Source: Piromyces finnis finn
Lineage: Eukaryota > Fungi > Neocallimastigomycota
Assembly (NCBI GenBank): GCA_002104945.1
Contig: MCFH01000083.1
Coordinates: forward strand, 104,387 to 168,386
Reading direction: 5' to 3'
DNA length: 64,000 nucleotides
In this document: positions 18,819-45,526 of the stretch, piece after piece
Layout: every line of letters starts with the position of its first letter
How positions within the stretch are numbered: the first letter of the stretch is position 1
Notes under the pieces: model-generated
Told to the model about the DNA's origin: nothing
Seen by the model: the letters and a program-made list of their open reading frames with translations, nothing else
Databases searched by the model: none
Position numbers and translations under genes: made by a program

Positions 18819-18854
18819 ATTAATCTCGCAGGAGCTCGACTTAGAGAGAGAGAT

Positions 18855-19460
18855 TGTAAAGATATCAAACGCCTCTGTTTGATATCTTTAATGTAACTTA
18901 AGCCACAAGTATTATTGTTTAAGTTACACAAATTATATTCAGAAAAAGAAAATGAGACATAATTTATTTATTAATAATTAAAGTTTAAAACAAAATAAAT
19001 TATTAATTTATTTTTAATGTTTAACAAGTAAATTAATATTCTCAATTTAAATCCCTAGTTTTAGTATTGTTTTTTTTATAGAAATAGATAAATAATAAAT
19101 GATTAATATATCAATAATACATGGGCACATATTCAAATTAAATAGTACTTAATTTGAATTGCCAATTGTATTTTACTAAAAATAGTTATAGTTTAAATAT
19201 TTATTAATAATTAAGATTTTAGTGTAGATTTTAAATAATAATATATAAGAAATAAATAGTTATAATATAATATAAATGTATTTAGGAAAAATATAAATAG
19301 AAGATATTTTTCATCATTTTATCGATGTAATTGTTATTATTAAAATTCTATTATAATAAAAGATATTTTATAAAACAATTTTTTATTTTATTTTTTCAAA
19401 ATCTTGTGTTATTGTAATAGAATAGATATCCTAATCTATTCTTTCTGTGTCGCCATTACA
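18855..19460 (+). repeat. 3' LTR
   Basis: Copy of 13245..13850, preceded by the purine tract AGAGAGAGAGA. Confidence 0.97.
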
Positions 19461-24010: not shown

Positions 24011-26809
24011 ATGGATATTCCTACAAATAACTGTATATGTTTAAAAAAACAGCAATCTTTAAAAGAAATATTAAATAATATATATAATCAAATCGAGATT
24101 ATAAAGCAACATCCTAATTTTAATTCTAAAAATGTGACCTTTGAATTAGAATTTAGACTTCAGAATAAATATACAAATATAGATGTGGAAGAATTCGTAA
24201 AGTATAACTCACATCAATATTTCGAATATTTATTGAAGGAAAACCAATCTACTAAATATAGAATAATTTGCAATTCTCAATACATTTCTAACAGTACCGA
24301 AAGCCAAGCCAGTAAAGATATTCATGATAATAACGATATTAATAAAATCAACTATGACAGCATCAATAATAATAACGTTAAAGACGACAATATTCATAAC
24401 AATAATAATAATAATAATAATAATAGTAATAATAATAGTAATAATAATAGTAATAATAATAGTAATAATAATAGTAATGAGATTACAAATAACATCAAAA
24501 CTAATAATAATAATGATAATTTAAATGGATATAAGGAACATGACAACTCAAGTTCAAAGTTAATTAAATATATTATATCCAATAGTGAAAAAGAAATTAG
24601 TATTGACTTTGACCAACACGTAGAGTATACAAAAAAAATAGCACTAATAACAGCTTACTATTTTGTATTTAAAATAGCACTTAATATTGAAACATCTTTA
24701 AATACTGAAAATCTTTTAAATTATTTAAAGATTGATAACGATATTACTGATAATGATAATGATAATGATACTAATAATGGTGATATTGATAATTATGATA
24801 ATAATGATAATAATAAAAACAATGAAAATATTAATATTGCTACAACTACTACTACTACTAATAATAATAATAATAATATTAACATTAATGTTAATAATGG
24901 TTTTAATAAATTAAATAAAATTTTTATTAAAGAGTCAAAAGAAATTACTATTATAAATTTTACTGAGCCAGTTCTGAAAAAAAGACGGTCTTTTATAATG
25001 AATCAAGATGTTCAAGTAGATGTTACCCACTACAATGAAATTAGTCAATTTGAAATAGATTTCACAAAAAATATTTATCATGACCAATTAGATATGGTCA
25101 AAATGGTTCATGATGTTATGCAAATTATTGATATATCCGGTTTCATTATAGATTATTTATTTATGCTCTTACCCAATTTCGAATTTCAAAAACCGATTAC
25201 ACCATCTCTGGACATACTATTCAAAAATGCTGAAACATTGATAAAAGATTCTTTCTTCGTATCAGCAAAAACCGATGGTATCAGAAAATTAATAATTGTT
25301 ATTAATAATCAAATTTATAGTATAACTGAAAATTTTTCAGTAGAATTTATAAGAGAAATTGAAGGTAATTACCATCTAATATTAGATTGTGAATTTATTA
25401 ATAATACTTTTATTCCTTTTGATGTTTTATACAGTGAATCCGATTTAAGAAGTTACTCTTACAAAGAAAGAATAAACATTCTTAATTGTTTAGATTACCT
25501 TAAATTTGAAAAAATTATAGTTAAAAAGGTTATAAAATGCTGTAAAGATTTTCAAGATATTCAAACATTTATATCATCGGCGGAATTAGAAAATACCACA
25601 CCAAACGATGGTATTGTCATAACCAGCGGAGCATCAACCTATTTTGAAAATACTAAAGTTTATAAAATTAAAACTATTAACACAGTAGATATCGAGTTTA
25701 ATGGACGCTATTTTTTAGCTAGGGAGCATAGAGTGAATAAATCTCTTTTAAATTTATCAGTAGAAAAATATAAAAATATATGTAAATTGTATAATAAGTT
25801 TAAAGTACAAAATCGCAAAACTACAAACCCTACTGAAAAGTATTATTATAAAAAGAAAATAGAAATTATAGAAGGCGTACCATGCAACAAAAAAGTAGTT
25901 AAATATCATCGTATTAAAAATAAAAAAATAAATTTTATAATAGAGTATGATTTAGATAATAAAAAATTTGTAAAGGTTCGCAAAGATAAATTAGTATCAA
26001 ATAGCATAAATACATTTAATAGTATTTTATTGGCTTCCTATCAAAAAATCAATATTGATATTTTTTCACCTAAATCCAATGTTCTAATGCGTAAATACCA
26101 CAATATAATAAAGCAAAATATTTTAAATGATTTTAGAGGAACTTTATTAGATATCGGTACAGGCAATGGCGGTGATATACACAAGTGGAATCATTTCCGT
26201 AAGATCGTTTGTGTTGAACCAAACCATGAAAAATTAAAAAATTTAAATAAAAGAATTTCAAATTCAGAAATTAAAAATAGAATCAAAATTATCCCGAATA
26301 ATATTCAGGAAGCTACGTTAAATGATCATTTTGATATTGCCACATGTTTTTTTGCATTAAATGATATGACTTATACCGACATATCAAGAATGCTAAAAAA
26401 TATCAAAAATTGTATAAGAAAAACATTTATTGTATTATTTTTTGATTCTTCATTATTTAGTGAAAATATAACTTCACCATCACTAATTTATCGAAAATGT
26501 ATTATTAATGAAAATAATAAAATTATAAATACAATCGATAAATTATCATTAACCTATCTGTTAAGTTGCCTTAGATATACGCATGGTGAATGCGATAATA
26601 TAATGTATGTAAATATTGTCGATTCAAATGTAACGAATCACTATGAATGTGGTATTAGTTCCATAAAAGTAATTAATATATTTAAGGAAAATGGGTTTGA
26701 ATTAAAAAAGCAATATTCAATCGAAAATTTTCCATTACTAAATGAATATCAAAATAAATATTCTTCTTTTCTTAAAGTCATTGAATTTTCAAATACTAAT
26801 ATTCATTAA
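24011..26809 (+). CDS. Trifunctional mRNA capping enzyme (RNA triphosphatase, guanylyltransferase, N7-methyltransferase)
   Basis: CYTH-type ELEFRL; GTase motif I KTDG, III ILDCE, IIIa FDVL, IV DGIV, V KIK; SAM-binding LDIGTGNGGD; N-rich inserts. Confidence 0.95.
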   Translation: MDIPTNNCICLKKQQSLKEILNNIYNQIEIIKQHPNFNSKNVTFELEFRLQNKYTNIDVEEFVKYNSHQYFEYLLKENQSTKYRIICNSQYISNSTESQASKDIHDNNDINKINYDSINNNNVKDDNIHNNNNNNNNNSNNNSNNNSNNNSNNNSNEITNNIKTNNNNDNLNGYKEHDNSSSKLIKYIISNSEKEISIDFDQHVEYTKKIALITAYYFVFKIALNIETSLNTENLLNYLKIDNDITDNDNDNDTNNGDIDNYDNNDNNKNNENINIATTTTTTNNNNNNININVNNGFNKLNKIFIKESKEITIINFTEPVLKKRRSFIMNQDVQVDVTHYNEISQFEIDFTKNIYHDQLDMVKMVHDVMQIIDISGFIIDYLFMLLPNFEFQKPITPSLDILFKNAETLIKDSFFVSAKTDGIRKLIIVINNQIYSITENFSVEFIREIEGNYHLILDCEFINNTFIPFDVLYSESDLRSYSYKERINILNCLDYLKFEKIIVKKVIKCCKDFQDIQTFISSAELENTTPNDGIVITSGASTYFENTKVYKIKTINTVDIEFNGRYFLAREHRVNKSLLNLSVEKYKNICKLYNKFKVQNRKTTNPTEKYYYKKKIEIIEGVPCNKKVVKYHRIKNKKINFIIEYDLDNKKFVKVRKDKLVSNSINTFNSILLASYQKINIDIFSPKSNVLMRKYHNIIKQNILNDFRGTLLDIGTGNGGDIHKWNHFRKIVCVEPNHEKLKNLNKRISNSEIKNRIKIIPNNIQEATLNDHFDIATCFFALNDMTYTDISRMLKNIKNCIRKTFIVLFFDSSLFSENITSPSLIYRKCIINENNKIINTIDKLSLTYLLSCLRYTHGECDNIMYVNIVDSNVTNHYECGISSIKVINIFKENGFELKKQYSIENFPLLNEYQNKYSSFLKVIEFSNTNIH

Positions 26810-27288
26810 AAATAAAGAAAAACAATTAACGAAAATATAATAAAATATATAATAATTATTATTATGATCATTATTATTTCTTCATTTATAATATTTAAAA
26901 TTTTATTTCAATAAAAGGATTTATATAAAGATTTTTATTATTTAAAACATATATATATATAAATGAATCTTTAGAAATTATAATAAAATAAATTAAAAAG
27001 ATTATTAAATATATATATTATTATTTTTTAAAATTCAATTCTATTAACTATACCTATATATATTAAATAAATATATGTATGTATGATTTATTATCTTAAT
27101 GCATTAGTCTAAAATATATTATGATATAAATAAATAAATAAATAAAAATTATATATTAAATATGAATTTTAAAATTAAAAAATTTTAAATTGATTTTAGT
27201 ATATAAATATTATAAACATGTTAAAACCGTTTTTCTAATAAAAAAAAAATAAAATAATATATATTTTATTCAATTAATAAAAACACAA

Positions 27289-29451
27289 ATGTATCTAGAA
27301 TTTGATTTATATAGTAATGAACAAATAGAAAAACTTTCCATTCTAATTTCAAAAAAGTATGAATTAACTGATAATACCACGTCATATATATTAGATCCTC
27401 AATTACCATGTAAACAATGCAAAAAAGTTATTGAATGTCCTGGCCATTTAGGAAGGATTCCCATTTACCAATACATTGTCCACCCATTATTTGTAAATAT
27501 ATTATGTAAAGAACTTACTCATGTATGTCCTATTTGTAAAAAATATAATGTTGCTCTTGATGTTAAATCACGATGCTGTGAAACACGAATAAAAGGTACT
27601 TCATTTTCCTTGCACAAGTTTAATGTGAAAAATACCAATTCAAATCAAAGGGTAAATCAAATAAAAATAGTGAAAATAAATCTCAATCCGAATATGCATT
27701 TTTATTTGGAAATCAATGGTTCACCGTTGTTAGGATGTATGAATTAATTCATACCTTTGATTTCAGTGAAAACCCTGAACTGAAAAATAAAATGCTGAAA
27801 GTATTTCTCAAAAATATACCTGTTTTACCCATAAATATGAGACCTTCAATTATGGATTCCAACAATATCATGATTCATAATAATATAACATCCATGTATA
27901 TAAGACTGTTAGATTTAAACTATCAGTTTAAAAGCAACACCAACCTTATTTCGTATGGTGGATATGGATTAAAAGTATTCAATCTATATAAAAAAATTCT
28001 TGGAATCCATAGTTCCACCGATACTACCGAAAATTCCGATAAAAATTTCATTAAGCAAATATTATCTGGAAAAACAGGAATTTTTAGAAGTATGTGTTTA
28101 GCCAAAAGACAAAACTTTTGTCTTCGTAGCGTCATCGTGCCAAATATAAATATTCCCTTGGACAAAATATTGATACCAAAAGAATTTACAGATCAATTAA
28201 TTCCCCATGGATATAAGCCAAATGACTATGTAATTATTAATAGACAACCTACACTCCAAACTACTTCTATATTATCCGTTCGCTCCTTTCCTAGTAGCAG
28301 TCGAACCATCCAAATTAATCCTCTAATAGCCAGTGTTTTTCAGGCTGATTTTGACGGAGATGAAATGAATATTTTTTGGCTACCAGGAGAGGAATCTAAA
28401 AAGGAATTGGCTACTAAACTGAACATTTCAAATAATATCCGTTCATTTAAGGATGGATCACTCATGATTAAATTTATTCAAGATACCTTAACTGGCTTAT
28501 ACAATATGACAAAGGATCACAGTATTGTCGAACCCCATATTATCGAAAACATATGTAAACGATTAAAAATATCAAAAAAGGAATGGAATATATTTTGTAA
28601 ATATTATAAATCACGAATGAATACCGATAAAATACCATATAAGCACTTACTTTCATTGTTGATTCCAAAATCACTAACTTTAAAAATGGGTGATAAATAT
28701 TTAGTAGACCATGGTATTCTACTTCACACTATTAATGGTGCCAATCAAACTGTATTGTTAAATTTATTACTCACTATGGTAACGATTTTTACTTGAATTT
28801 ATGTGGGATGTACAACGTATGGTTCATGAATACAATTTATTTCACATTATAAGTATTTCCATTTCAGATTGTATACCAGACCCAAGCATTGAAAATGAAT
28901 TTACATCCATTTTGGAAAAAATTCCTGACACTTTATCGGCTATACAACTACCAAATTTAGATTCTTCTATTATCTCTCAAGACAAAGATAGTAAAGAAAT
29001 AAAAAAAATAAGAAAGTATTATTTAGAAAATTATCCATTATTAGAAAGTTTATCTAAATCGATTAGCAATAATCTAACCAATATTGTCAATAGTGGTTCG
29101 AAAGGGAAAATCGATAATGTCATTCAAATTTTAATGTCAGTAGGAGTTCAAGCCGTTTTGCAAAGTTGCTATATTAAGAGTTCCTATTCCGAAGGACTTA
29201 CAGCAAAGGAACTATTTATACATTCAAAATCAGGCCGTGCTGGAATTATTTCAACTTCTCTCAACACTTCTTCTACAGGCTACATGCAAAGAGAACTGGT
29301 CAAGAGTATGGAAGACCTTATTACCGATAAAGATGGTTTTGTACGTGATTATAATAATGATGAAATCTATTATTATCCTTTTTCTACAAACGTCCAAGAT
29401 ATAGATGATTCATTTTTGGAATATGCTTTTTCAATGTCGTTAAAAAATTAA
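27289..29451 (+). pseudogene. RNA polymerase largest subunit, N-terminal part (A'-like; Rpb1 regions A-F), broken by three 1-nt frameshifts (real lesions or read errors)
   Basis: CPGHLGRI, LSGKTGIFR..AKRQNFCLRSVI, NRQPTL, catalytic QADFDGDEMN, SGSKG, GYMQRELVKSMED. Adding one base in each of the runs 27628-32 (A5), 28758-59 (T2) and 28786-90 (T5) restores a single ~721-aa ORF. Confidence 0.9.
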
Positions 29452-30325
29452 TAAGTATTAAATATTTATATTTACATTTATATTTATAAAATTTATATTT
29501 ATTACATTTGAAAATTTATTTGGTTTTTATTTATAATTTATAGTAAATAGAAATACATGTATGTAGAACAATAAAATTATAGTTTATTATACTATTATTT
29601 AAATAGAATAATAACTTTTTTTTTATTTTATTTTTATGATGACCAATGAAATTAAATTTACTGTATATCTTTCCTTTAATAATACATAATTCACTCTTAT
29701 TAATTATTATTGTAAAACTAATAAAATTATTTAAAATTTAATAATATTTAAAAAAAATAAAAATAAAAATAATTATATAAATTTGTTAATTTGAATTTAT
29801 AATTGACACTTTGATAATTAAATCTAAATATCCTTAAAAACCTTTTATATAATGTAATATTTTTTAAAAAAACAATATTATTATATTATTATATTATTAT
29901 ATATATCTAAAAATTTTAAATAATTGAAATATTATATATTTAATATTTATTTTTTAAAATATAATATATTTCCAAAAGTATTTCCTATGAAAATACTATA
30001 AAGAAATAAAAAAAAGTATTTTTATTTCATTAAATTCATGAACCAATCATAAATAATAGCAACTTTTTTTTTACATTATTATATTAATGTCAAATGAAAA
30101 TAAATGACGATTAGTATTGAGATATCAAAAATATTTTAATTTTGGAAAAACCATTTTATAAAAACTTTCTCATATCCTTGATTTGTTTTATGAATAATTT
30201 ATTAAAATTAAAATAAAAAATTATATTTATTGATAGCTTTATCTTTATAATTTTGATTAATATTAAATATTAAAAAATTAATAAATAATAAAAGTTAAGA
30301 GTGAAAGTGGAAGAAAATAAAATTA

Positions 30326-30955
30326 GTGGTGACGCACATGTCTTGGGACGATTTCTTTATAAAAAATTCTAAATTAGTATTACATATATATAATCAGTTG
30401 AGAAATACTTATTTTACACCACCACTGGAAGATGTATTTGGAATCTTCAAGTATGTCAAGTTAAGTGATGTTAAAGTTGTAATGATAGGTGATATGCCGT
30501 ATAAAAATACTCGAGATATTTCAGACATAGCTTTTGGATCTAAAAACTGTAATCCACCATTATTATTGGAACGTATTTACAAAAATTTAGAAGATACAGT
30601 AGCTACTTTTCAGCGACCATACAATCATCACTTAGATAAATGGCTAAATAATGGAATATTTTTATGTAATTTTTGCTTTACACGAACTATTGCTGATCCT
30701 TTACCATATCATTATCATTTGTTGTGGGAACCATTTATTAATAATCTAGTACAGTATATTTCAAATGACCACCCTGTTGTTTTTATGCTATTTGGTACAA
30801 AAGCCATTTCAGTTCGAAAGTCTATTAACGAAATTAAGTCATCGGTTGTAGAAGTTCCGCATCCTATTTATGAATATAATGAATTTAAAAAATCAAAATG
30901 TTTTTGCAAAGCTCGTGAACTTTCTTGTGAGTTGGGTTTTACTATTCAATGGTAA
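30326..30955 (+). CDS. ung: Uracil-DNA glycosylase family 1 homolog with divergent catalytic motifs; first ATG at 30338
   Basis: VKVVMIGDMPY (cf. GQDPY), IAFGS, PPLLLERIYKNL, LDKWLNNGIFLCN, VFMLFG, HP, IQW terminus. Confidence 0.9.
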   Translation: MVTHMSWDDFFIKNSKLVLHIYNQLRNTYFTPPLEDVFGIFKYVKLSDVKVVMIGDMPYKNTRDISDIAFGSKNCNPPLLLERIYKNLEDTVATFQRPYNHHLDKWLNNGIFLCNFCFTRTIADPLPYHYHLLWEPFINNLVQYISNDHPVVFMLFGTKAISVRKSINEIKSSVVEVPHPIYEYNEFKKSKCFCKARELSCELGFTIQW

Positions 30956-31436
30956 AATATATATTTATGTTAATAATTTTAAAATGTCATTAATTTAAAA
31001 AAATATAATACTGCTAATCAGATAATATTTTGATGTATTTAATCTTACAATTACCTTTTTTTTATTTTAAATTAAAATAAATATTTTATTTTTTTACAAA
31101 TATCCCAAAAATTAAAAATTAATCTCTTTCTTTACCTTTTTTTTTTAAATATTCATTATATAATTACTAATAAAATATGTAAAAAGAGTCTTATACATTC
31201 TGAAAATAGTAATACACAAAGTCTTTATGATATTTTAATTTATTTATTAATTTTATGAATTTATTAAAATAATTTTATATATAAATTGATTATTAATTTT
31301 TTAAAATATATATATAAAAAAAAATAAATATTCATATTTTAATAAATTAATATAGTAATAGTATGTATATATGTTATTACTAAAAAATATTATACTATAA
31401 TAATTAGTTTTTATTTAAATTAATTTTGAATTAATT

Positions 31437-32090
31437 TTGAAAATGGTATTAATTAAATGTACTTTATTTTTATTAACAATTATTACTTTGGTATATTCTA
31501 ATAATTTATTTAATTCTGATGTTTTTAATAAATTAAAAAATGAATTAGATAATTCTGATGTTTTCAATAAATTAGAAAATGAATTAGATAATTCTGATGT
31601 TTTTAATAAATTAGAAAATGAATTAGATAATTCTGATGTTTTCAATAAATTAGAAAATGAATTAGATAATTCTGATGTTTTTAATAGATTAGAAAATGAA
31701 TTAGATAATTCAAACTTTAAATCCAAAACATATAAATCTAATTTAACTAATACAAAAAGAACTACTACAACTAGAATTTTAACTACAAAATTTATAACTT
31801 CTGAAAAGACTTCCTCAAAAAGTAGTAGTAGTGTATTTACTTATACTAATAATTTTACTGTTCCTGATAGAACTTATATTGTTGGTACTAAAACCTATTA
31901 TGCTAAAACAGTCTCAACTTCAAAAAATCCTCAAATTCCAACTATATTTTCTAATAGCAATTGTGGAAGTAAACAAGACGGTATCTATATATGCAAAAAC
32001 AATCAATGCTGTAGTATGTACGGTTATTGTGGTACAAGCAGTAAGTACTGTGGTACAGGATGTAAACCAAATTATGGAAAGTGTTGGTAA
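31437..32090 (+). CDS. Secreted chitin-binding protein: signal peptide, 5 x 13-aa repeat, S/T linker, CBM18; ATG at 31443
   Basis: Hydrophobic N-terminus; C-terminal CGS...C..NQCCSMYGYCGTSSKYCGTGCKPNYGKC hevein/CBM18 pattern. Confidence 0.9.
   Translation: MKMVLIKCTLFLLTIITLVYSNNLFNSDVFNKLKNELDNSDVFNKLENELDNSDVFNKLENELDNSDVFNKLENELDNSDVFNRLENELDNSNFKSKTYKSNLTNTKRTTTTRILTTKFITSEKTSSKSSSSVFTYTNNFTVPDRTYIVGTKTYYAKTVSTSKNPQIPTIFSNSNCGSKQDGIYICKNNQCCSMYGYCGTSSKYCGTGCKPNYGKCW
31512..31706 (+). repeat. 39-bp coding tandem repeat x5 (NSDVFNKLENELD)
   Basis: Five near-identical in-frame units. Confidence 0.95.
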
Positions 32091-32530
32091 TATAATTATA
32101 AATATTACAAAAAAAAAGTTTTTTAAAAAGATCTTATTTAACAAATTATTATTATATTTTTTTAAAAAAAAAAATTAAAACACATAATTTTCAATTATTA
32201 TTAAAGTACTTTATAATATATAAATTTACTTTATCACTTAAAAAATATTTTATAATATCAAAATTAATATTTTAATTATAAATATAAATACTATTTTTTT
32301 TTTAAAAAAAAAAAAAGCAAATGTTTTAAAAAAAATATTAATATATATTATATTATTAATATTTCTTTTATTTTATTTGACATATCATTCTACTTTTATT
32401 ATTATTATTTATTATTTTTTTTAATATTTTAAATATATAATATTATATAATATTAAAAATTGAAAATAATTAATATTTAATTATATATTATTATATATTA
32501 TTATTTATTATTACTGCTATTATTAATTTT

Positions 32531-35500
32531 TTAAGTAAATCTTTTTGTTTTTCTTATAGCTTTTTTCATTAATTTTAATACTTTATTTTTTAATTTATTT
32601 TTTAAACTTAATTTATTATTGGTAGAATTAACAGAACCTAATTTATTGAGGTTACTTAATTTTGATTCCAAATCATTAGAATTGTTCGAATTATCTCCAT
32701 TAGTTAATTTAGAATGGGTATTAAATAACATTTTGGCACCACTACTAATTTCATTAAATTCATTAATAGCTTTACTGAATTGTTCACTATTTTCTCTACC
32801 AGCAGATTCACACAATTTAAATTTAGCTCCTTTAATGTGTTTATATAATTCATTCATGGCATTATCGATGTTACCTTTGATTTCATTTAAGTTTTCTTTT
32901 ACTTGTTCCTTTTCAACGGCATTTAAAGAGTTTTCGAATTCATTTATTTCTAATAAAAGATCATTCATATTTGAAAATAGATCGTGATAATTGCGTATTT
33001 CTAGGTTTTTTTCATTATTATTGTATATAGATTTTAAATCGATAAATCCGTCCTCATTATCTTTAACTTTTTCGACATCTCCAACTGCGTAATCATCGTA
33101 TTTATTTACAGACTCTATAAAATTCATAAATGTTCTAAAATTATGTTCTTGATATGTTTCAATATTACTCCAATTTTTACTTATGGAAACAAGCTTATTA
33201 GAAACTGATACTACTTCATCAATATCTTTTGGATCTCTGCTCATTGGACTAGCATTCTTTACCAGATTAATTTTTAATTTAGCACTATCAGAAATTTCAG
33301 ATATTCCATATTCATTGGATGAATTTTCAATAATTTTGACCAAGGCTTCACCTTCACTATTAACAGGAGTCTTTAAGAACCTATTGTAATCTTTTAGAGT
33401 TCCTTTGTTAACACTGTCATTTCCAAATGTAAATTTGATAGAGTCATCTCCTGCAGTATTAATGAAATCTTCAAATCTTTCCTTATTTTCTTCATTGTTA
33501 AATTTTTCTGGATTTTCTTTAAAAATTTTATTTATACCTTCATTTGCTTTTTTAGTTGCAATATAATTCAAACGATTTTTTAATTCATTATCGCTTTCAA
33601 TGTCTATCGGATTTATATCATCGGTAATTCCATCATTATTAACTTTATTTTCATGTATGCATACAGAAACTAAATCATTATAATTATTGATCAATTCAAG
33701 TAGATGATCGGCTTCTTCAAAATGACCCTCAGCAGACGAATATTCTTTCATATTTTGTATTTTTTTCATAATATTATTTTCTAACAATTTCATATTATTA
33801 AAAATATCTTCACTTAACTGATCCTTGTTTTCACCTAGCATTAATACTTTTATTTTAAGATTATCAAAGAATAGCTTAATATAGGGTTTTGAATTAATAT
33901 CATTGGAAATATAATCAATGAAATTATCTTTATCAGCATTCACATGATCTAAATTAATGATATTTGTAGATTTTATATTACTATCATCGATTAATTGAAT
34001 AGATTGTACATCATTATCATAAAAGAATTCCTTTTTTAGTTTTTTAGCATACGCATTTCTTAGTTTAAGAACAACTTCGGAATTGTTTTTTATCTCATCA
34101 CTATTTGAATTATCCTCCTCAAATACACTCCATAATTTATCAAACTCATTAAAAAGATATAATAATTTATTTTTGAATTCTTCTTTATCCTTTTCATTAA
34201 TATTCATATTTTCAATATCTTCACATAAAAGATCAACTTCTTTCGTTCTGTCTTCATCAAATTCTTTATTATCTTTACCAAAATTAAATAACATGCAAAT
34301 GTGCATTTCCTCGGAATTTTCGTTTAATAAATTATAAGAATTATTAATATTTTCAATTAATTTATCTTTATATAATTTAGATTGTGAATTTTTGTTAAAC
34401 TCAATATCATTAATTAAATCATCGCCATTATCGTCAATTAAATTAGTTTCATGATATTTTTCATGAATATCTTTAACTTTTTGTAAATTTACTTCCAATT
34501 TATTTATATCATCTTCATTAATATTTTCAATAAATTTATTATTTGAAATTTCTGATTTAGAAATATTATTTCTACAACCATTAATAAATTCATTGAAATT
34601 CTTAATAAATTCTATACTTTCTTTTTCACTAAATTGGTCTATATTTTTAATATAATCATTTACTAACCCGTCCCAAACATCATTTATCTTTTCAGCATTT
34701 TTATATAGTTTCTTTAAACTTAAATATTTAATTTTTTCGTTATTCTCATTGTCGTAATCATTATCATCATTTTCATTATCATTATCATCATTATCATTAT
34801 TATCATTAATATAAATATCGTCATCTAATAAAATATTTGAATTAATCTTTTTATCGCGAACCATAATTAAAGTATTAATCAAAGGATTGTTTACATCAAA
34901 ATCGGTAACCAGCAATGATGAACGTTGACACGATTCTCCTGCTCTTTTTCTTAATTTATTAAATGTACATAAATTTCCAGTATTTATTAATGACTGAATT
35001 GATTGAGAAAAAGATAATGTATTTTTCAATTCAATAATATGATTATTTTCTTTAACTATTCCTTCAAACTTATTATTTGTTTTTATAGGAAACATTTTCA
35101 ATATTGATAATATTTTAGTTAAATTATTAATTTTTTCAAGTTTTGTTTGAGATATTAATCCTTTACTTTGACGTTCTTTTATAAATTCTAAAATAATACC
35201 TTCTAACTTTTTATAAACTGGATTACTTTTTGAGCAAACAATATTGTCATCGGGATTAATATTTGCTGGACTTGTAAGAACACTGTTTTTCGCAATATAA
35301 CCCTTTACAGATATTGAATTAAGTGTATTATCATTTACGAAATAAGAAGGATCATTTGAGTTATTAGGGTCATATCTATTACCATTCTTTTCAAGAATTG
35401 TTCCAAATTGATATATAATTCCAATTCCTGGATCTTGTACTCTATTACTTGTAGTATAGTGTTTATGATAACCATTATTATAGTTTATTACATCATTGTA

Positions 35501-36358
35501 TGTTATACTATTTGGAGAAAATGAACTATCTACTGAATAAATTATATTATTATTGCTATCCTTAGTTTCAATTAAAGTAAAAGGATGTGACAATATTTTT
35601 AATTCCCCATCATCTATAATAAATGAATGTTTAATAGTATTGCCATTTTTTGTTGTGATTATAAAAGTATTGAGTTTATCATTATTATTCTTATCAAAAT
35701 CGCGAGTACTTTCAAAGTGTATATCTTTACAAAATATACTGGCATTTATGCATTGAGCAGCTATAGCAGCTATTAGATCTGATTTAGAAGAATAATTTGA
35801 ATTGTTTGTATTTAATGTAAGTTTATTTGATGGATTATTGATGTTAACAGGTTGATTTTGATTTCCTTTAAGGTCATTTATACTTTTATTTTTAATATAA
35901 TTATAAATATGCTTATTTATATTACTTTTTGATAAATAATTTATTTCTTTATTTTCTAATCCCAAAAATAATGAAATAGGATTATTATTTGTTGATTTTG
36001 TTAAAACATTTATTAAATCATATGAATTAATAATGTCGGCTGGATTTGTTCCTGTTGGAAAATATGTGTTATATATTGTATCAGCTAAATCGTGTAATTT
36101 ACTAAAAGTTACTTTATTATTTCTTAAATTAGGAATAATATCCTTAATATCTATAATTATATCATGACCAGTTTGACCACTAACATTAACTTTAAGTTCA
36201 ATCTTTTTATTATTACTATCAACGTCCATAACAATATTTCCATCATCATCACTCACTGCATATGTTAATATTGCAAACAATTCTTTCATGTGATCATGAG
36301 CACTACTATAAACTTTAATTATGAACAATAATATTAATATGAAATAAAAGAACTTCAT
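32531..36358 (-). CDS. Large secreted protein, 1275 aa, with a Cys-flanked dibasic cleavage loop; candidate two-chain toxin/effector
   Basis: Signal peptide MKFFYFILILLFIIKVYS; C464-TFNKLRKRAGES-C477; acidic, helical-looking C-terminal two thirds; no family recognised. Confidence 0.8.
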   Translation of the reverse strand: MKFFYFILILLFIIKVYSSAHDHMKELFAILTYAVSDDDGNIVMDVDSNNKKIELKVNVSGQTGHDIIIDIKDIIPNLRNNKVTFSKLHDLADTIYNTYFPTGTNPADIINSYDLINVLTKSTNNNPISLFLGLENKEINYLSKSNINKHIYNYIKNKSINDLKGNQNQPVNINNPSNKLTLNTNNSNYSSKSDLIAAIAAQCINASIFCKDIHFESTRDFDKNNNDKLNTFIITTKNGNTIKHSFIIDDGELKILSHPFTLIETKDSNNNIIYSVDSSFSPNSITYNDVINYNNGYHKHYTTSNRVQDPGIGIIYQFGTILEKNGNRYDPNNSNDPSYFVNDNTLNSISVKGYIAKNSVLTSPANINPDDNIVCSKSNPVYKKLEGIILEFIKERQSKGLISQTKLEKINNLTKILSILKMFPIKTNNKFEGIVKENNHIIELKNTLSFSQSIQSLINTGNLCTFNKLRKRAGESCQRSSLLVTDFDVNNPLINTLIMVRDKKINSNILLDDDIYINDNNDNDDNDNENDDNDYDNENNEKIKYLSLKKLYKNAEKINDVWDGLVNDYIKNIDQFSEKESIEFIKNFNEFINGCRNNISKSEISNNKFIENINEDDINKLEVNLQKVKDIHEKYHETNLIDDNGDDLINDIEFNKNSQSKLYKDKLIENINNSYNLLNENSEEMHICMLFNFGKDNKEFDEDRTKEVDLLCEDIENMNINEKDKEEFKNKLLYLFNEFDKLWSVFEEDNSNSDEIKNNSEVVLKLRNAYAKKLKKEFFYDNDVQSIQLIDDSNIKSTNIINLDHVNADKDNFIDYISNDINSKPYIKLFFDNLKIKVLMLGENKDQLSEDIFNNMKLLENNIMKKIQNMKEYSSAEGHFEEADHLLELINNYNDLVSVCIHENKVNNDGITDDINPIDIESDNELKNRLNYIATKKANEGINKIFKENPEKFNNEENKERFEDFINTAGDDSIKFTFGNDSVNKGTLKDYNRFLKTPVNSEGEALVKIIENSSNEYGISEISDSAKLKINLVKNASPMSRDPKDIDEVVSVSNKLVSISKNWSNIETYQEHNFRTFMNFIESVNKYDDYAVGDVEKVKDNEDGFIDLKSIYNNNEKNLEIRNYHDLFSNMNDLLLEINEFENSLNAVEKEQVKENLNEIKGNIDNAMNELYKHIKGAKFKLCESAGRENSEQFSKAINEFNEISSGAKMLFNTHSKLTNGDNSNNSNDLESKLSNLNKLGSVNSTNNKLSLKNKLKNKVLKLMKKAIRKTKRFT

Positions 36359-36652
36359 TTTTACTTTATTATTTAATTTTTGTTAAATATCAAAGTTTAA
36401 TTAATAATCATTTTAAAAATATAATAAATAATTATAATTCAACTAATTTATTATTTTTAATATTATTATAATTATATATATAATAAAATACTATATTTTT
36501 ATCAAAAAATTTGATATGATTAAAATATATTTTAAAAATATGTTATTATCAAGTTATCAAGTGATTTTATTTTTTATAATAGTTAAATAAAATAAAATTG
36601 TTTAAAATTGGAATATTTTGTACTTTTTTTTTATAAATATATACTTCATTAA

Positions 36653-38098
36653 ATGGATAATACAGAATTATTTTATAAAGAATTAAATAGTACTTGTAAT
36701 CCTGATACATTATTAAAAATTGCAAAAAAAGGAATTTTTTTATATGAGCCTTTATTTACAAATAATAAAATAAAAGATCATGAAAATGTAATTGAAATCA
36801 GTATATTAGCTGGACAATATTTTATGATATTTAATAGAAAGCAGTATCAAAAACTAGTAGAATTAATTTCTCGGAAAGATTTCACAATTTATCCACATCT
36901 AAATAATCATTATATTATTTTTAATATATTTATTATAAATAAATATTTTATAGAACAATTAATGATCGAAAAAAATAATGATTTTTTATTATTAATACAT
37001 GAGCGTTTATCTAATAAGATAACAATATTATTGTATTTATATAAGTATAATTATATATCCACTAAAATATTTTATTCATTTTATTATTATGGTAATAAAC
37101 ATAATTATTTTAATTTTGTATTTGAGTTGTATGAATATTTTTACCATAATGAATTTAAAAATTTGTTTGAAAATACATTTGATGCTCTCGATATTACTGG
37201 TAAATCTAAAATAATTTCTGAAATGTTACTTTTTTATGGAAGAGATATTAATATATTTAAATATTGTATAAAGAAGATTAAGCAATATCATTTATATATA
37301 CGATATGATTATTTTCGAATACCTTTACATTTTCCAATAGAGTATTTAAAAGAATATAATGATGATGTATTTTTTCCAAATGAATTGTTTGTTACTTGTG
37401 AAGATAAAAAAATTGAAGAATTTATAAATACATTTTTTTCTGATTATTTCATTCTTGTATTAAGTAATAATTATAATGATAAATATAAATGTTATGAAAG
37501 ATTTTATTCAAGATATAATATTGATATTGACAAACTTTATAAATTTAAATATTATAAAAAAAAGGATATAAATTTAGATTATATATATAATTCAGAAGAA
37601 TATAAAAATTTCTTAGAAGGAAATAAGAATTTCAAGGGAATAACATATAATACAAGAGATAATATTATAAATTTAATTAATATAAAAAAAGAAAAGTACA
37701 AATACTATAAACTTAAAAGAATGTTTATAAAAAAGAATTTTAACAATTTATATTTTGTTAAAAAGTACTTGAAAGAGTATAATGAACTTGAAAAAATATT
37801 AAGTGATCCTGAATATATTTTAAGTCAAAATATTGAAATTTGCATTAATGAATATTATGTTATGTTATTTTGTTGTTCAATTTCAATGATTCACAATAAT
37901 TTTAATTATTTTATTATTAAAGCATTATTATATAATATTTTTGATAGTTCTTATTTTGATGTACTTGATAAGAAACTTGTTTTTTTTAAGTATACGTGTG
38001 AAGAACCATATATTAGAAAAATATTTAATATATTATGTTCAACTCCACATGAAGTATTTAATAATTATATTTTAATAAAAGATTATAATCCTAATTAA
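36653..38098 (+). CDS. Hypothetical cytoplasmic protein, 481 aa, rich in Y/F/N/K
   Basis: Long ATG-started ORF without signal peptide, divergent from the 1275-aa gene; very AT-rich codons. Confidence 0.75.
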   Translation: MDNTELFYKELNSTCNPDTLLKIAKKGIFLYEPLFTNNKIKDHENVIEISILAGQYFMIFNRKQYQKLVELISRKDFTIYPHLNNHYIIFNIFIINKYFIEQLMIEKNNDFLLLIHERLSNKITILLYLYKYNYISTKIFYSFYYYGNKHNYFNFVFELYEYFYHNEFKNLFENTFDALDITGKSKIISEMLLFYGRDINIFKYCIKKIKQYHLYIRYDYFRIPLHFPIEYLKEYNDDVFFPNELFVTCEDKKIEEFINTFFSDYFILVLSNNYNDKYKCYERFYSRYNIDIDKLYKFKYYKKKDINLDYIYNSEEYKNFLEGNKNFKGITYNTRDNIINLINIKKEKYKYYKLKRMFIKKNFNNLYFVKKYLKEYNELEKILSDPEYILSQNIEICINEYYVMLFCCSISMIHNNFNYFIIKALLYNIFDSSYFDVLDKKLVFFKYTCEEPYIRKIFNILCSTPHEVFNNYILIKDYNPN

Positions 38099-38309
38099 AA
38101 AAAAATATTCTTTTTTTTTTTAGATTTTTATAAATTGAAAGAATTGTTATTTTTATATATATGTATTTGGTATATATTTTACTTTATGTATATAAATTTA
38201 TATAATTTTTAAAAGGCAAATTTAATATGTTTTATCATAAATATTATAAAATGATTTTTTTACGAATTTAAATAATTAACAAACAAATTGTTATATATAG
38301 TATTTTATT

Positions 38310-38768
38310 ATGGATTTGCTATTAATATCGTTGATAACTTTTACATTTTTTGCTAATTATATTTTAGCGAAAATAGATAAAAAGGAGTTCTGTTTGCATA
38401 ACTATAATGGTATCACAAAAATAGTTGATCCCTTTTATATCAACTCTAAAAATGAAACGATTTATTTTGATACTATTGAAGAGTATTCGAAATACATTGG
38501 ACCTACATGGTTTGGCGTAGCCTATTGTGGTAATAATACTATTGTTAATAATGTAGGACGTTATTTTAAATATATTGGAGATGATGTTAATCCATCAACA
38601 GATACTACACCAACAGAAATAAGCGATAAATCAGATGAAGCAGAAACTGAAGGAGTATTTGAAGAAGATGACATGTACAACGATGATGCAAATGAAGTTT
38701 TTGTTGTTAATAAAGTAAGTTCCAAGAAGCAATCTAAAGTCAAAAGGTACATGAATTTTGTTAAGCGA

Positions 38769-38799
<31 letters not shown>

Positions 38800-41700
38800 G
38801 TGATAATGGTAATGATAATGGTAATGACAATAAAAATTTTTTGAATCTACATACCAAAGAAGAATTTACAAATTATTATAGTAATCTTTATGATAAGTTG
38901 ATGGATCCTGAAAAGCCATTAAAATGTGTTCCATTGAATAGTGTTAACCCAGCGTACAATCCCTATCATCCTTTATTGATTAGAACAACCAATAGAGAAA
39001 GAGCAAACATTATAAATAATATGGGTACAGTGTATGGAGGTAATAGTAATAAAATAATGGAATTTATTAAGGATAGTAAAGATATACAACCATGTGGAAT
39101 TGTTATGAAGATGAAAGATTCATCCATTTCGTGTAGTGTTCGAATTTCAAATACAATTGATGAAAGTGTAACTATTACGGACAGCAATGGGAAAACTTAT
39201 CATCAAGCATATGGAGTTGTTTATAGTGATACTAATTCATTTTCTGATGATATTAATACAGTTTTAGAATTGTCAGTATCTTCGACAGAGAGTAAATCAC
39301 TTTCATATTCCGAATCCGATACGGTTTCTAAATCAGCTGAAAGAGTGCTTTCATATACAAAATCCAAAGGTAAATCTGTTACAGATTCAAGTGAAGACAC
39401 TCACACTGATACTCACGAGAGCTCTTATGCTTATACAGAAAGTGAAGAACATTCTCATGCAAGAAGTGATGGTGGTGAAGTTGTTGATGAGACTAATTGG
39501 AGTAAAAGTGAAGAAATATCACATGTTGAAGAATATAGTCGAATGGAAAGGAAGGATTATGAAAATGCCAAATCAAAAGTAAAAAGAAATGATGTAGTAT
39601 CGTTATGCAAACGAGGAGGTATTTGTATTCCTTGTGATGTTGTTGATACCGTTACAAATGTAGTTGGTACTGCTGCTAATATAGGCTTGCAAATACAATC
39701 TAATAATTTACAAAAAGAGTCTAATGATATAGCCAGAAATTCCACAGAAGCTGCTTACATAGCTAATGATATCGCTAGAAATTCCACAGAAGCTGCTTTT
39801 ATTGCTAATAATATAGCAAGTAATGCCAATGAGATTGCAAAAGACGCTAATGCTGCTTCATGGAAGGCAAATAATTTAACGTTACAGTCGATAGAATCTC
39901 AAGAAGATATAGCAAGGAAAGACAGAGAATTGCAAAGAGAACTTAATGAACTTAATGCACAACAAGAACTTGCTATTGCATTTGCAGGTACAAGAACTAC
40001 AAGTGATAGTTATAGTACGGTTAAAAGTGAAGGTGGAAGTCATAGTCAGTCTGAAAATTGGTCTGATACCTATACCGATTCTACAGGTATTAGCAACACC
40101 TGGACTACATCTGATGGATATTCCGATTCACATACTCAAGGTCATTCGGAAACAACTACTGAAGAAAGTACTCGATCTGATTCTATTTCACATTTATTAA
40201 CAAATACATTTACTAAAGATAAAGGTTGGAGTTTTGAATCTTCTAATACTAATTCAGCATCCAATAGTTATTCTTACGGCAAATCAAATACAATATCCCA
40301 TACAAATGATATTTCCATAGACCAGTCTATTGAAGTATCGGCTGAGAGATCATATCAGAAATCGGTTTCAAGATCTAACACCGAAGAACATAGTAAAACT
40401 CTCGAATTCCATATTCCAGATAATGGTTGTTACAATCTAACAGCTGTTCCTTTATTTAGATCAGAAGTAAATATTTGGGCGTGTGGTGACTATGATATAT
40501 ACGGAAATTATTATACACGTTTTCAAAAAACCATTCATCCAATTGAATTAACAGATTTTGCCAAAACACCAATTGAATGCAATAAGGAGCAAATTGATCC
40601 AGTTATTATTGATAACAATTATCAGAATAGAAATTATATTCCTGATAACGGCATGCCTAAAAACACACTAATTTCAGGTCAAGTTTTAAATAAAGGCAAT
40701 AAAATTAAATCACGCAATGGTAAATATTATTTTGGATTATTGGATGATACAGGAGAATTAGCTTTATGTAAAGGTGAGTTCAAAAAAGAAAATATTGTAT
40801 GGAGTAATGGTATAGATTTTTTGAAAGATGATAAATACAATCTTAAATTTAAAGTAAATTATAACGGACATTTGGTTGTTACAGCAAAGAATATATTTTC
40901 AAGATATAGAGTAATGGATACTGATCAAAATAATGATGTAAATATTAATATTAATAATAATTCCAAGTTATCAAAGCGTCGTAGTCCATTAGATAGATTA
41001 TCTTCATTACTAGATAATAAAACAACAACAACAACGACAACAACTTCTACTACTACAACAACTACAACTACAATTAATACTACTACAACTAATGAAACTA
41101 ATTCTATTGCTATTACAACATCCACAATCGAAAATACAAATAAAAATACTAGTAAAGAGAGTTCAACATCTTCATCTAATTTAATTGTTTCAAAGGCAAC
41201 CGAGAATTTAAGTAGCTTAATATTTTCTAGTACTTATTCTACCACATCTAATGAACCTACATCGACTGCTGTTAACACATCTACTAATACAAGTAGTTCT
41301 GAACCAGTTAAAATGGCTAATTATAGAAATACCGAGGAATTCATTATATGGGATTCATTACCTAAAGATTTACCATTCAATGTAGGCTACTCAGATGGAT
41401 CGGGATACTCATTGGTCTTAAATGACGACGAAAATACCGATTATTGCACTTTAACATTATATGATGGTGTAGGTGTAAAAATTTGGGAAATTAAGCCAGG
41501 GCAGTATGATTATATAGGATATGCGTTTCCAAGAGAATATAATATGCCATTAGCATTCGAAACTAAAAAAGCTGAAAAAGATATTAGTAAGTATGATTTT
41601 CACAATGTTATTAGACCGGAAGTAAAAGATGTATTTATTCATAAAATGAGCTTCACTTGTGATACAAAGATGCGCGAAAATGAGGCGTTGGTATCAAGTA

Positions 41701-44700
41701 ATGGCAAATATAGATTTTATGTACAACCATCAGGTAATTTAGTTATTAAAGAAAATTCCAGAACGATGTGGTCTTCATTAACTGCTAATATTGAAATATT
41801 TGAGGCACCATATATTTTGTCATTCTCACCATTGGGCGAACTATTATTGAGAGATAAAAATAAGTTTTTAATATGGCACACTGTAAACGGAGATTCATTT
41901 AAAAATACAGAAAAGATTGAAGACATTCGTAAATTTTCCTTAATATTATCAGATGATGGGGAATTATATATCGAGGATAATTATCATAATATGTATTGGA
42001 GTTCATGGCCTGTAAGATTATATAATCAACATATACGATATGTTGAGCCAATGATTTATGATATATCCATATGTAAGGAAACTATAAGAAATAAATACAT
42101 CTACGATCTCTTTTCCAATCCAAATATTTATAATTATTATGAAGATCCAGATGACTCAACTACCTATGTTCGTAAATACTATGTTAATAATTTATTACCA
42201 AATGAGTCATTGCTTTCAATATACCATGCTACTTTAAATGTTACAGATACTGAAGTTGTATTTTATTATAAGTATAAAGATAAAATGCATTCAAAGGAAT
42301 TGGCCAGTTGCAGTAAAAATTCGAATGTTAAGGAATTGAAATTAGAAAAAAATGGTTTATATTTGTATTGTAATGATAACACCTATAAAACTATTGCTAT
42401 GGTACCAGAGAATCAAAAATATTATCGTCTTTCTATTGAGAAAAGATATAAAATGGATTATCCTGATTTAATGATATACAACACCAAAACTAAGGAGTTC
42501 TTATGGGGATTGAATCCAGTTAAATTTTTGTATAGTGTTGTTCCCAATAAAACTAAATATGGTGAATACAATAGAATTGTTACTGCTAATACATTTACAA
42601 CATTTGATAGATTAATATCTTATAATGGTGGTGGAAATCATGTGTATATGTCCAATTCTCATGGATTAGAATTGAGTAATTCAGCATACACTGAATTTAA
42701 GAGCTTATCCCTATTGGATGATAACTTTTATATTAATGATGAAATAATTATTAAGAATGAAAAAAATATGGAACTTTCTTATGATGGTATCAATGATAAA
42801 TTAATAATCACAAATGATGCCGATACATTGTGGGAATTATTTGGAAGAAAAAAATGTAATAAATTTATTTCTTCTGATGAAAATTGTAATACTCTATATT
42901 CCTTTAGTGAGTTTTACAATGACGAAAATGAAAAAACTTTTCATTTAGCTTCATATTGGCTATTATATAAAAGTAATACGTTTTATATTTTTAATATAAT
43001 AGAGTATCTTAAAACCATTAATGAGCCAATATTTTCAATGAAACTAAATGAAAATGGTGACATTACATTAAACAATAATAAATATATATTTCACAAAGAA
43101 TATTACAAAAAGGATCAATATTACGAATTAATTACCAATAATTATAATTTAATATTAAAATCAAGTACTGGAGAATATAAATGGGCACTTGGAGATATCT
43201 TCAACCGTGCCTATAATGCAGATATCTTAAAAATTGGAGATTCTTTCAAAGAAGGTGAAATGTTATTCTGTGATGATTATTCTCTAATTATTCTTGGCGG
43301 TAAATTATTGTATAGAGACCACAAAACATTTAATGAAGTCGACATTTTAAATTTAAAAAATAACTATGTTTCAAAATTAGCTATAGGATCTAGAAGTTTA
43401 ACATTCTTTGATAAAAGTAATGAACCAATTTATGCGATTATGTCACCTGATAGTGTTGATTATCCTGACAGCTGTCTTAAATGTGATAAAATCAATAAAG
43501 GAGTGTATTGGGATGACGGTAATGGAAATTCATTATGGAGTTATCCTAAGAATTTACCAAAAACCGATACTACTACAATTACTTCAACTACCACCACTAC
43601 CACCACAACCACCACTACTACTACTACTACTACCACTAGCATTATGCAAACTCCTCAAACTATTGTTTTTACTACACATGTTACTAACTACTCAACCGAA
43701 TATATAACAGAATCACAAACTAGTATAGCCACTAAAACTAGTTATAGTTATGCAACTTATACCAATGTAAGTTATCAAGGAAGTATTGGATCAAAGTATT
43801 ACCTAGGTATAAATGAATTAAAAGAATATGTCACACTTGAAGCTAAATATGGTGGAAATAATAAACAGCCAAGCAAGTATATTAAATGGTTAATTAAATC
43901 TGAAAAGGAACCTTCATATATGCATATAGTAAATAATAATGGTGAAATATCAAATTATTGTTTAGACGTAGGTAAAAGTAAAAACAAATATTCTTACTAT
44001 TTAAGAATTAGTAAATGTTCAGAAGACACTTACTTATTTAAATATAATGTGCCATTTACTGATTATGAAAATTCAAAAATAAATAATCCAAATAATATTA
44101 TTGTTTATAAAAACGATAATTCTTTATTTACTAATAGTAACGGTGTACCATATTGTATTTATTACAGCGATACATTGCGTATAGAAGAGTGTAAAGATCC
44201 TAAAGATTATGAAAATTTCAATTGGAAAAAATACAATAATGGCTATTTTACTGAAACTTCCACAAAGACTAAATTACAAACTTCTACTGAATATCTTACC
44301 AAGAGCACAGTAGTACCAACCATATTAACTTCAACAATAACTTCAATTTTATTACCTACTTTTTCACCTACTTTTTCACCAACTACGTCTACTACAACGA
44401 ATATAAGTAGTATTACTACTAAGGATATAAATCCTACACAATCCATTGATTTACTATTTATTCCTTTAACCTTTAAAGGTATACAAAATGGAAATTCCAG
44501 TATTTTCTTAAGTGTTCCAAAATTAGGAACAAATGAATCTTTTGATATGAGAATATCTGACAGCTACTATACATGGTTTGTTACTTCAACTACAAATCCT
44601 TCTTATCTTTATCTATCTGAAGGTATTTCAGGAAATATTGGAAATCCAACAAATTATTGTTTGGATTTAGGCGACTTTGTTCATAATGAAAAGGATAACT

Positions 44701-44933
44701 ATAATTATTTACGTATCGAAAATTGTTCTAATGTAAAGTATAAATTTATGTATAATGCTTCAGATAATGCTAAATATGGAACAATTAATGTTTACGATAT
44801 CAATGGTAATCCTCTTTCTATTAATAATGACTTTATGTGTATTTACTATTCAATGACACCTCGTGTCGATAAATGTGTTGATCCATCCCTTAATACTAAA
44901 ATGGGTTGGGAAATGTCTCTAATAAAAAATTAA
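38310..44933 (+). CDS. Giant secreted multidomain protein, 2207 aa: S/T-rich beta-pore-former-like region, bulb-type lectin domains, two ricin-B-like domains
   Basis: Signal peptide; several KR sites; alternating S/T strands at ~39130-40480; B-lectin-like blocks (SRNGKYYFGL..GEL, SSNGKYRFYVQPSGNLVI..WSS) at ~40670-40890 and ~41670-42010; duplicated NYCLD.G..LRI..C..W domains after T-rich linkers. Confidence 0.85.
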
Positions 44934-45526
44934 TAATAAATTAAATTATTAATTATTATTATCATCAAATAATTATAATTTATTCTATTAATTAATTAAA
45001 ATGTATAGATTTATAGAAAAAATAAAAAAATAAAAAAAATAGATAAAAATATAAAGATAGAAATAAAATAATAATAATAATAATAATAATAAAATATGAA
45101 ATATGAAAAATATTTAAAATAAATAAATAAATAAATAAAAAGATAAATAGAAAAAAACAAAAAAAAAAAAGAAATAAATAGGATAGGGTCAATAAAAAAT
45201 ATATATATAATAATAACAAAATTATATATATTTTTTAAAATTTTAAATATTTCTTTTTTAGTATCAGTTTTCTATCTTCATTTATTGTTATTTTTTTTAA
45301 ACCGTATAATATATTATTTATTATGATTATAATAACAAAATTTTCATGTAAAGAAATTATAAACTATTTTATATTTTTATATTACTTTTATAAAATGATT
45401 TTATAAGATTTTAATAAAAATAATTATAAAATAAAATAAATTAGAAATTACATATATATAAATAAATATATATATATATTTAAAAAAAAAACTATAAATT
45501 CAAGCAAAAATTTTTAAACAGAAGAA

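What the first reader, a model, noticed from the sequence alone, without database searches (positions are those of the whole stretch)
32531..36358. 1275-aa secreted protein with a C-x5-RKR-x4-C loop, the hallmark of disulfide-linked two-chain toxins
Seen: a signal peptide, a globular ~445-aa N-terminal region, then C464-TFNKLRKRAGES-C477 (34969-34928), then an acidic helical ~800-aa region. Established: A-B toxins (diphtheria-type) and Kex2-processed yeast killer toxins are nicked at a dibasic site, with the chains kept together by a disulfide. Inference: a Kex2-activated toxin whose N-terminal chain may be an unrecognised enzyme (nuclease, ADP-ribosyltransferase or similar) and whose C-terminal chain mediates translocation.
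Basis: partly seen in the sequence, partly recalled or inferred. Interest (0 to 1): 0.7.

Follow-up and report, generated by a model that had tools for sequence, protein, structure and literature searches.

The report
Gut-fungus two-chain toxin with immunity partner
A virus-like DNA element in an anaerobic gut fungus carries an intact gene for a large, likely secreted protein that is predicted to be cut into two disulfide-linked chains, next to a gene for a likely cytoplasmic protein whose variants track the fast-changing first chain; the pair likely is a killer toxin and its antidote of a family that matched nothing in our searches.

Summary
Observation confirmed: intact 1275-aa ORF with C464-TFNKLRKRAGES-C477 (2.2% of shuffles hold such a loop). 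The family (50 representatives; every named record looked up is Neocallimastigomycota) keeps a Cys-[KR]R-Cys loop at this junction in 9 of 17 units, down to ~26% identity; 4 more carry KR just downstream. AlphaFold models the N-chain confidently with the loop disordered, but neither chain matches a known fold, so no enzyme is identified; the C-chain has no hydrophobic helix and no HDEL. New here: the N-chain diverges faster than the C-chain (two alleles 48% versus 98% identical), and the head-to-head 481-aa neighbour without signal peptide appears linked in three other cases, its identities (58/50/50%) following the N-chain (63/50/49%), not the C-terminal part (78/78/98%). The locus lies in a ~54-kb fundsalphavirus-like unit with direct repeats. 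Best reading (0.5): a Kex2-nicked two-chain killer-type toxin with a cytosolic immunity protein. Cleavage, disulfide, toxicity and binding are untested; linkage rests on contig lengths and one fused gene model. The scan noted this element type before in this genome, not this protein or partner.

The parts
32531..36358 (-). 1275-aa secreted two-module protein (P0001), candidate protoxin
   Evidence: family
36302..36358 (-). predicted signal peptide, residues 1-19 (boundary by eye)
   Evidence: sequence; hydropathy; similar N-termini in homologs
34943..36301 (-). A module (residues 20-472): alpha/beta fold with no match found; variable between alleles; candidate effector chain
35729..35752 (-). 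conserved C203-x6-C210 pair inside A, likely intrachain disulfide
   Evidence: each Cys in 35 of 37 rows
34928..34969 (-). C464-TFNKLRKRAGES-C477 loop; predicted Kex2-type cut after K471-R472, chains predicted to stay linked by C464-C477
32534..34942 (-). B module (residues 473-1275): acidic, all-helical, conserved; candidate carrier/entry chain
33701..33730 (-). most conserved B motif G-H-[FY]-E-E-x-x-H (H879 the only near-invariant column); role unexplained
32534..32668 (-). basic C-terminal tail (residues 1231-1275), no HDEL/KDEL
36359..36652 (.). 294-bp AT-rich spacer between the two divergent start codons
36653..38098 (+). 481-aa protein without signal peptide or family match, head-to-head with the protoxin gene; candidate cytosolic immunity protein
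1..57735 (.). fundsalphavirus-like (NCLDV-derived) unit of ~54.1 kb including a Ty3 insertion, with direct repeats 1-3619 and 54130-57735 (99.4%); PolB, D5-like primase, split Rpb1/Rpb2, methyltransferase-bearing capping-enzyme-like ORF, SNF2-like helicase
   Evidence: gene set compared with PMC7017919 section 4

Best explanation
The gene likely encodes a secreted killer-type protoxin that is predicted to be cut at K471-R472 into an N-chain (A) and a C-chain (B) held by a predicted C464-C477 disulfide, and the divergent 481-aa neighbour likely encodes its cytosolic immunity protein. Shown: intact ORF, loop conservation, faster divergence and mosaic exchange of A, co-variation of the neighbour with A, location in a virus-like replicon. 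Inferred: Kex2-type cleavage in the Golgi; B (conserved helical bundle, basic tail) binds and enters other gut-fungus cells; reduction frees A, which acts in the cytosol by an activity not identifiable from its fold; the allele-matched neighbour binds and neutralises A in carriers, so the element kills non-carriers or carriers of other alleles and maintains itself, as yeast virus-like elements do.
For: Loop: Cys-[KR]R-Cys at the A/B junction in 9 of 17 units that span it (P0001-4, P0052, P0055, P0068, first units of P0087 and P0034), on several deep branches; 4 of the other 8 have KR about 30-45 residues downstream (P0046, P0047, P0049, P0050). Loop disordered in an otherwise confident model (pLDDT 86.6, pTM 0.83). 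A less conserved than B in 6 of 6 pairs of loop-bearing units, but in only 1 of 6 pairs of loop-less units. Alleles P0002/P0003: 48% in 20-463, 98% in 681-1230; A tree and B tree disagree (96/95; 100/99). Most AT-rich of 19 element ORFs measured (17% GC). Precedent: separate non-secreted immunity ORFs on yeast virus-like elements (PMC13442484 section 7).
Against: No enzyme fold or invariant polar residue set in A. B has no hydrophobic segment (best window 1.11) and no HDEL, so no known entry route is visible. 8 of 17 units lack the dibasic loop yet keep the A sequence; P0006 has neither Cys pair nor nearby KR. A tolerates insertions of several hundred residues (P0006, P0034, P0098), awkward for a translocated enzyme. 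KR sites are common in secreted neighbours too (7 KR/RR in the 2207-aa ORF).
Confidence: 0.5

Rival explanations
1. A nicked two-chain surface or secreted recognition protein (exclusion of a second element, self/non-self recognition or adhesion); A is the polymorphic specificity domain and stays outside the cell; the neighbour co-varies only by linkage.
For: No catalytic signature or toxin fold; weak resemblances of part of A are to cystatin-like and protein E sheets (Z 3.6-3.9, not significant); large insertions and tandem A-B-A-B forms; no hydrophobic helix in B.
Against: No membrane anchor or GPI-type tail; accelerated divergence is confined to A modules with a cleavable loop; the neighbour has no signal peptide, which fits an intracellular target.
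Confidence: 0.22
2. A toxin with reversed roles: A is the variable receptor-binding or pro-domain and B, released by nicking, is the active chain (helical membrane-acting or intracellular effector with a basic tail).
For: B holds the only near-invariant polar motif (H879) and a basic tail in 9 of 11 full-length members; A conservation is mostly structural.
Against: A cytosolic neighbour that follows A rather than the C-terminal B; B is hydrophilic and acidic; two alleles with 98% identical C-terminal B appear paired with partners only 50% identical.
Confidence: 0.16
3. An element-encoded entry or transmission protein, processed like viral glycoprotein precursors, that helps a capsid-less replicon pass between cells; or an ordinary polyprotein whose KR site only separates independent modules.
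For: Location in a virus-like unit with no capsid family hit among 23 ORFs; a second Cys-KR-Cys loop directly before an A module in P0057 shows such loops serve as general module linkers.
Against: No transmembrane anchor; no match among predicted viral structures; does not explain the co-varying cytoplasmic neighbour.
Confidence: 0.12

Closest known systems
Yeast virus-like-element toxin/immunity pairs (zymocin/KlORF3, PaT/PaORF4, DrT/DrORF5; PMC13442484 sections 6-7; PMC6211774 passages)
   Same: Secreted processed protein and a separate non-secreted ORF of similar size (481 aa versus 353-452 aa) on a DNA element with its own RNA polymerase, capping enzyme and helicase; AT-rich partner gene.
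   Different: One polypeptide rather than chitinase alpha/beta plus anticodon-nuclease gamma; no GH18, LysM or nuclease match; element is NCLDV-derived with D5-like primase and direct repeats, not a linear pGKL-type plasmid; host is Neocallimastigomycota.
K28 (and K1/K2) dsRNA-virus killer toxins (PMC5391188 passages; PMC13442484 section 6)
   Same: Signal peptide, predicted Kex2 processing, predicted alpha/beta chains joined by one disulfide, toxic chain N-terminal.
   Different: 1275 aa versus about 350; no excised gamma piece; no C-terminal HDEL; immunity would be a separate gene; DNA element; no sequence match.
Diphtheria-type single-chain A-B toxins (features recalled, not from a call)
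   Same: Dibasic protease loop bracketed by two cysteines between an N-terminal and a C-terminal chain.
   Different: No ADP-ribosyltransferase match for A, no hydrophobic translocation helices or beta receptor domain in B; eukaryotic secretory pathway.
Bacterial polymorphic toxin systems (search listings and abstracts)
   Same: Variable end plus conserved carrier, mosaic alleles, adjacent co-varying partner gene.
   Different: Mirror layout (variable chain N-terminal, partner upstream and divergent); A alleles are homologous variants, not unrelated swapped domains; eukaryotic.
Fundsalphavirus endogenous elements (Gong, Zhang, Han 2020, PMC7017919)
   Same: PolB, D5, SNF2-like helicase, SAM methyltransferase, RPB2, RPB1 in N and C parts; anaerobic gut fungi among hosts.
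   Different: The section read describes core genes only and mentions no secreted cargo, toxin or immunity gene (its supplementary gene maps were not read).

Membership tests
K28/K1/K2-type killer preprotoxins | Signal peptide and Kex2 dibasic site between the chains | tested here: met
   Present in sequence and conserved; actual cleavage not testable
K28/K1/K2-type killer preprotoxins | Interchain disulfide | tested here: inconclusive
K28/K1/K2-type killer preprotoxins | C-terminal HDEL (K28) | tested here: not met
   0 of 11 full-length members end in an ER-retrieval motif
K28/K1/K2-type killer preprotoxins | Encoded on a dsRNA satellite with excised gamma piece | tested here: not met
   DNA element; a single internal KR
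Yeast VLE toxin-immunity pairs | Separate non-secreted immunity ORF on the same element | tested here: inconclusive
   Candidate 36653-38098 linked and co-varying; neutralisation untested
Yeast VLE toxin-immunity pairs | GH18/LysM chitinase carrier plus anticodon-nuclease subunit | tested here: not met
   No such Pfam domain in P0001 or 37 homologs scanned; only a separate hevein-domain ORF next door
Diphtheria-type A-B toxins | Dibasic loop bracketed by two cysteines | tested here: met
Diphtheria-type A-B toxins | ADP-ribosyltransferase or other known enzyme fold in the A chain | tested here: inconclusive
   Fold searches of a 601-residue model listed no such match; model above the size advised for single-domain search
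Diphtheria-type A-B toxins | Hydrophobic translocation helices in the B chain | tested here: not met
   Best 19-residue hydropathy window in B 1.11
Polymorphic toxin systems | Variable toxin end on a conserved carrier, exchanged by recombination | tested here: met
Polymorphic toxin systems | Unrelated toxin domains on the same carrier | tested here: not met
   All N-modules joined to a B module matched one A profile
Polymorphic toxin systems | Toxicity neutralised by the adjacent gene | not testable with these tools
   needs bench test
Fundsalphavirus elements | Shared gene set (PolB, D5, SNF2 helicase, SAM methyltransferase, RPB2, RPB1n/c, RPB5) | tested here: met
   All but RPB5 found by Pfam (D5 and Rpb1-C weak); list from PMC7017919
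Fundsalphavirus elements | PolB phylogeny within the fundsalphavirus clade | not tested
   reference sequences not fetched

The most novel reading that the evidence does not exclude
A killer system of anaerobic gut fungi: a giant-virus-derived, capsid-less replicon encodes a polymorphic A-B toxin whose released A chain has a new fold and a new cytosolic activity, delivered by a hydrophilic helical carrier through an undescribed route and neutralised by an allele-specific immunity protein encoded head-to-head, the two forming an exchangeable cassette.
Probability: 0.35. Interest if true: 0.85.

Novelty: new variant of a known kind. Interest (0 to 1): 0.66.

Why it matters
If true, it extends killer toxin-immunity systems from yeasts to early-diverging rumen fungi and to NCLDV-derived elements, suggests why these elements persist as small intact units, supplies a toxin and an immunity family with no recognised fold, and gives a testable route for strain competition among the fibre-degrading fungi of herbivore guts. 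Even if not a toxin, it is a diversifying, lineage-restricted secreted family with a confident structural model and no match.

Tried and rejected
No family or structure hit for the protein: Pfam (one sub-threshold aminotransferase hit rejected; homologs), NCBIfam, PDB sequences (weak ACE2 helix hits rejected), ESM Atlas, Foldseek PDB and viral, VIA (72 best Z 6.3 on a helical bundle; 76 best Z 7.6; 117 best Z 3.9). Neighbour: Pfam 0 meaningful of 15, PDB none, Atlas only scores under 0.9. Genomic context could not be fetched: no own genome, viral contigs empty (14, 82; 81 no pattern), metagenome contigs gave one 2.6-kb fragment. Complex prediction of A with the neighbour was not available, so no verdict. 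P0057's Cys-KR-Cys loop was first counted as junction support and then dropped, since it lies before an A module; P0086 was dropped as truncated in the loop. A contig-length coincidence at 2497 bases (P0009, P0145; too short for both genes) was left out by the 5-kb floor and shows such coincidences occur. An HExxH reading of the B motif was rejected: only the second unit of the P0034/P0025 type has it. Literature searches listed no paper on this family, a toxin on fundsalphavirus elements or a killer system in gut fungi; the library lacks most subscription papers.
Full report
Observation. The minus-strand ORF 32531-36358 is intact, 1275 aa. C464-TFNKLRKRAGES-C477 is at 34969-34928; K471-R472 is the only internal KR/RR. 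Such a loop arises in 2.2% of 2000 shuffles. The N-terminus reads as a signal peptide by hydropathy; there is no other membrane-spanning window (best 1.47 in A, 1.11 in B). The last 45 residues are strongly basic and there is no HDEL.

Setting. The window is about 22% GC and holds PolB, a D5-like primase, Rpb1 and Rpb2 in pieces, a methyltransferase-bearing capping-enzyme-like ORF and an SNF2-like helicase, bounded by a 3.6-kb direct repeat 54.1 kb apart (99.4%) and interrupted by a Ty3 element with 612-bp LTRs. An earlier unreviewed note on this genome (e1-10593334) pointed to fundsalphavirus; the shared gene list in PMC7017919 (abstract and section 4 read; supplements not read, and its gene maps could bear on cargo genes) matches except RPB5, which I did not find. 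I built no PolB tree. A record identical to part of the neighbouring ORF is named Piromyces finnis. The gene lies in a cluster of four ORFs with signal-peptide-like N-termini (31443-46246).

Family. Word-indexed searches gave 2 homologs with the N-region and 5 with the C-region; a profile of six N-regions gave 50 representatives at E<=0.001 among 1.84 billion. Of 16 clusters looked up, 10 had organism names, all Neocallimastix, Anaeromyces or Piromyces; the remaining representatives were not looked up. Members are built of an A module and a B module, singly or as A-B-A-B. Of 17 units spanning the junction, 9 have Cys-[KR]R-Cys (P0001-4, P0052, P0055, P0068, first units of P0087 and P0034), 5 have a short Cys pair without dibasic site (three second units, P0049, P0050) and 3 lack the pair (P0046, P0047, P0006). 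Four of these 8 carry KR about 30-45 residues downstream. P0086 (truncated) and P0057 (loop elsewhere) were left out. Loop-bearing A modules lie on several long deep branches; 7 of the 8 loop-less ones group together (80/91, long-branch warnings apply). So nicking is a kept feature of a subfamily, and it is absent from all three internal second units.

Structure. AlphaFold2 on residues 20-620 with 45 rows gave pLDDT 86.6, pTM 0.83, an alpha/beta A module and a low-confidence loop at 463-476; the disulfide itself could not be measured. Residues 464-1275 are all-helical, pLDDT 65.3, pTM 0.43. Fold searches found nothing significant; both models exceed the size advised, so a single-domain match may be missed. 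Conserved A positions are mostly hydrophobic, Gly, Pro and Cys; no acidic, basic or His residue is invariant.

Asymmetric evolution. P0002 and P0003 are 48% identical over 20-463 and 98% over 681-1230; the A tree pairs P0001 with P0002 (96/95), the C-terminal B tree pairs P0002 with P0003 (100/99). Among four loop-bearing units A is less conserved than B in 6 of 6 pairs; among four loop-less units in 1 of 6 (pairs are not independent).

Partner. The 481-aa ORF 36653-38098 starts 294 bp from the protoxin start, divergently. It lacks a signal-like N-terminus, has 14 other homolog clusters and no family match. A Neocallimastix lanati gene model of the family (P0028) begins with this family's N-terminal motif, implying a same-strand copy or remnant upstream. 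Longest-contig lengths coincide for P0010/P0103 and P0003/P0130: 2 matches among 24 and 30 lengths of 5-21 kb, chance 0.002; I did not see that DNA. For the three pairs, partner identities are 58/50/50%, A 63/50/49%, N-terminal B 58/58/63%, C-terminal B 78/78/98%; the partner tree agrees with A weakly. The partner is the most AT-rich of 19 ORFs measured; yeast element immunity genes are above 75% A/T (PMC13442484 passages), but the whole element is AT-rich, so this is weak. Binding and expression remain open.

Mechanism. Most likely (0.5): secretion, Kex2-type nicking, disulfide-linked A-B dimer, uptake through B, reductive release of A into the cytosol, protection by the matched neighbour. 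I put nicking into two linked chains at about 0.75 and some toxin role at about 0.65. All these steps are inferred. Rivals: extracellular recognition or exclusion protein (0.22), toxin with B as active chain (0.16), entry protein or plain polyprotein (0.12).

Comparison. It would work like yeast virus-like-element toxin-immunity pairs (PMC13442484: abstract, section 7, first part of section 6 and passages read; PMC6211774 passages) and is processed like K28 (PMC5391188 passages), but fails membership tests for both and for diphtheria-type toxins (features recalled). PMC13533422 has no occurrence of Neocallimasti-, toxin or secreted; bioRxiv 2021.12.02.471044 passages mention only ricin-type modules in gut fungi (its supplements are closed). 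Nine paper searches listed no description of this family.

Verdict. Real feature; uncharacterised family; a new variant of killer-type toxin-immunity systems if the reading holds. Interest 0.66.

Noticed in passing
window:38310-44933 (+): 2207-aa secreted protein with 7 KR/RR sites, Ser/Thr-rich alternating stretches (aerolysin-like by eye only), bulb-type lectin domains (Pfam B_lectin 1.6e-7; putidacin-L family 7e-8) and a weak ricin-type lectin end; possibly a second, pore-forming toxin.
   Followed up: partly
window:45527-46246 (+): 239-aa protein with signal-like N-terminus and hydrophobic C-terminus (GPI-like), directly after the 2207-aa gene; could be a surface immunity protein or a captured host gene.
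   Followed up: no
window:31443-32090 (+): 215-aa secreted protein with 13-aa repeats and a hevein chitin-binding domain, tail-to-tail with the protoxin gene; chitin binding is part of yeast element toxins.
   Followed up: no
window:1-3619 and 54130-57735: 99.4% direct repeat holding an identical 732-aa ORF without family match, as expected from an integrated circular or terminally redundant ~48-kb replicon (after removing the Ty3 insertion); the left end may lie beyond the window.
   Followed up: partly
window:13243-19464: Intact Ty3/chromovirus-type retrotransposon with 99.8% identical 612-bp LTRs inserted inside the element.
   Followed up: no
window:19785-23633 and 27289-29451: Rpb2 in two ORFs and the N-part of Rpb1 in three ORFs in different frames, while the cargo genes are intact; decay or sequencing error.
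   Followed up: no
P0028, P0034, P0087, P0057 (protein records): Tandem A-B-A-B proteins whose second unit lacks the dibasic site; in P0057 a Cys-KR-Cys loop lies directly before such an A module, suggesting the loop-less unit can carry different cleavable partners.
   Followed up: partly
P0007, P0028, P0041, P0087, P0044 (protein records): Several named family members sit on 49-82-kb contigs in assemblies that also have megabase contigs, which would fit free replicons.
   Followed up: no
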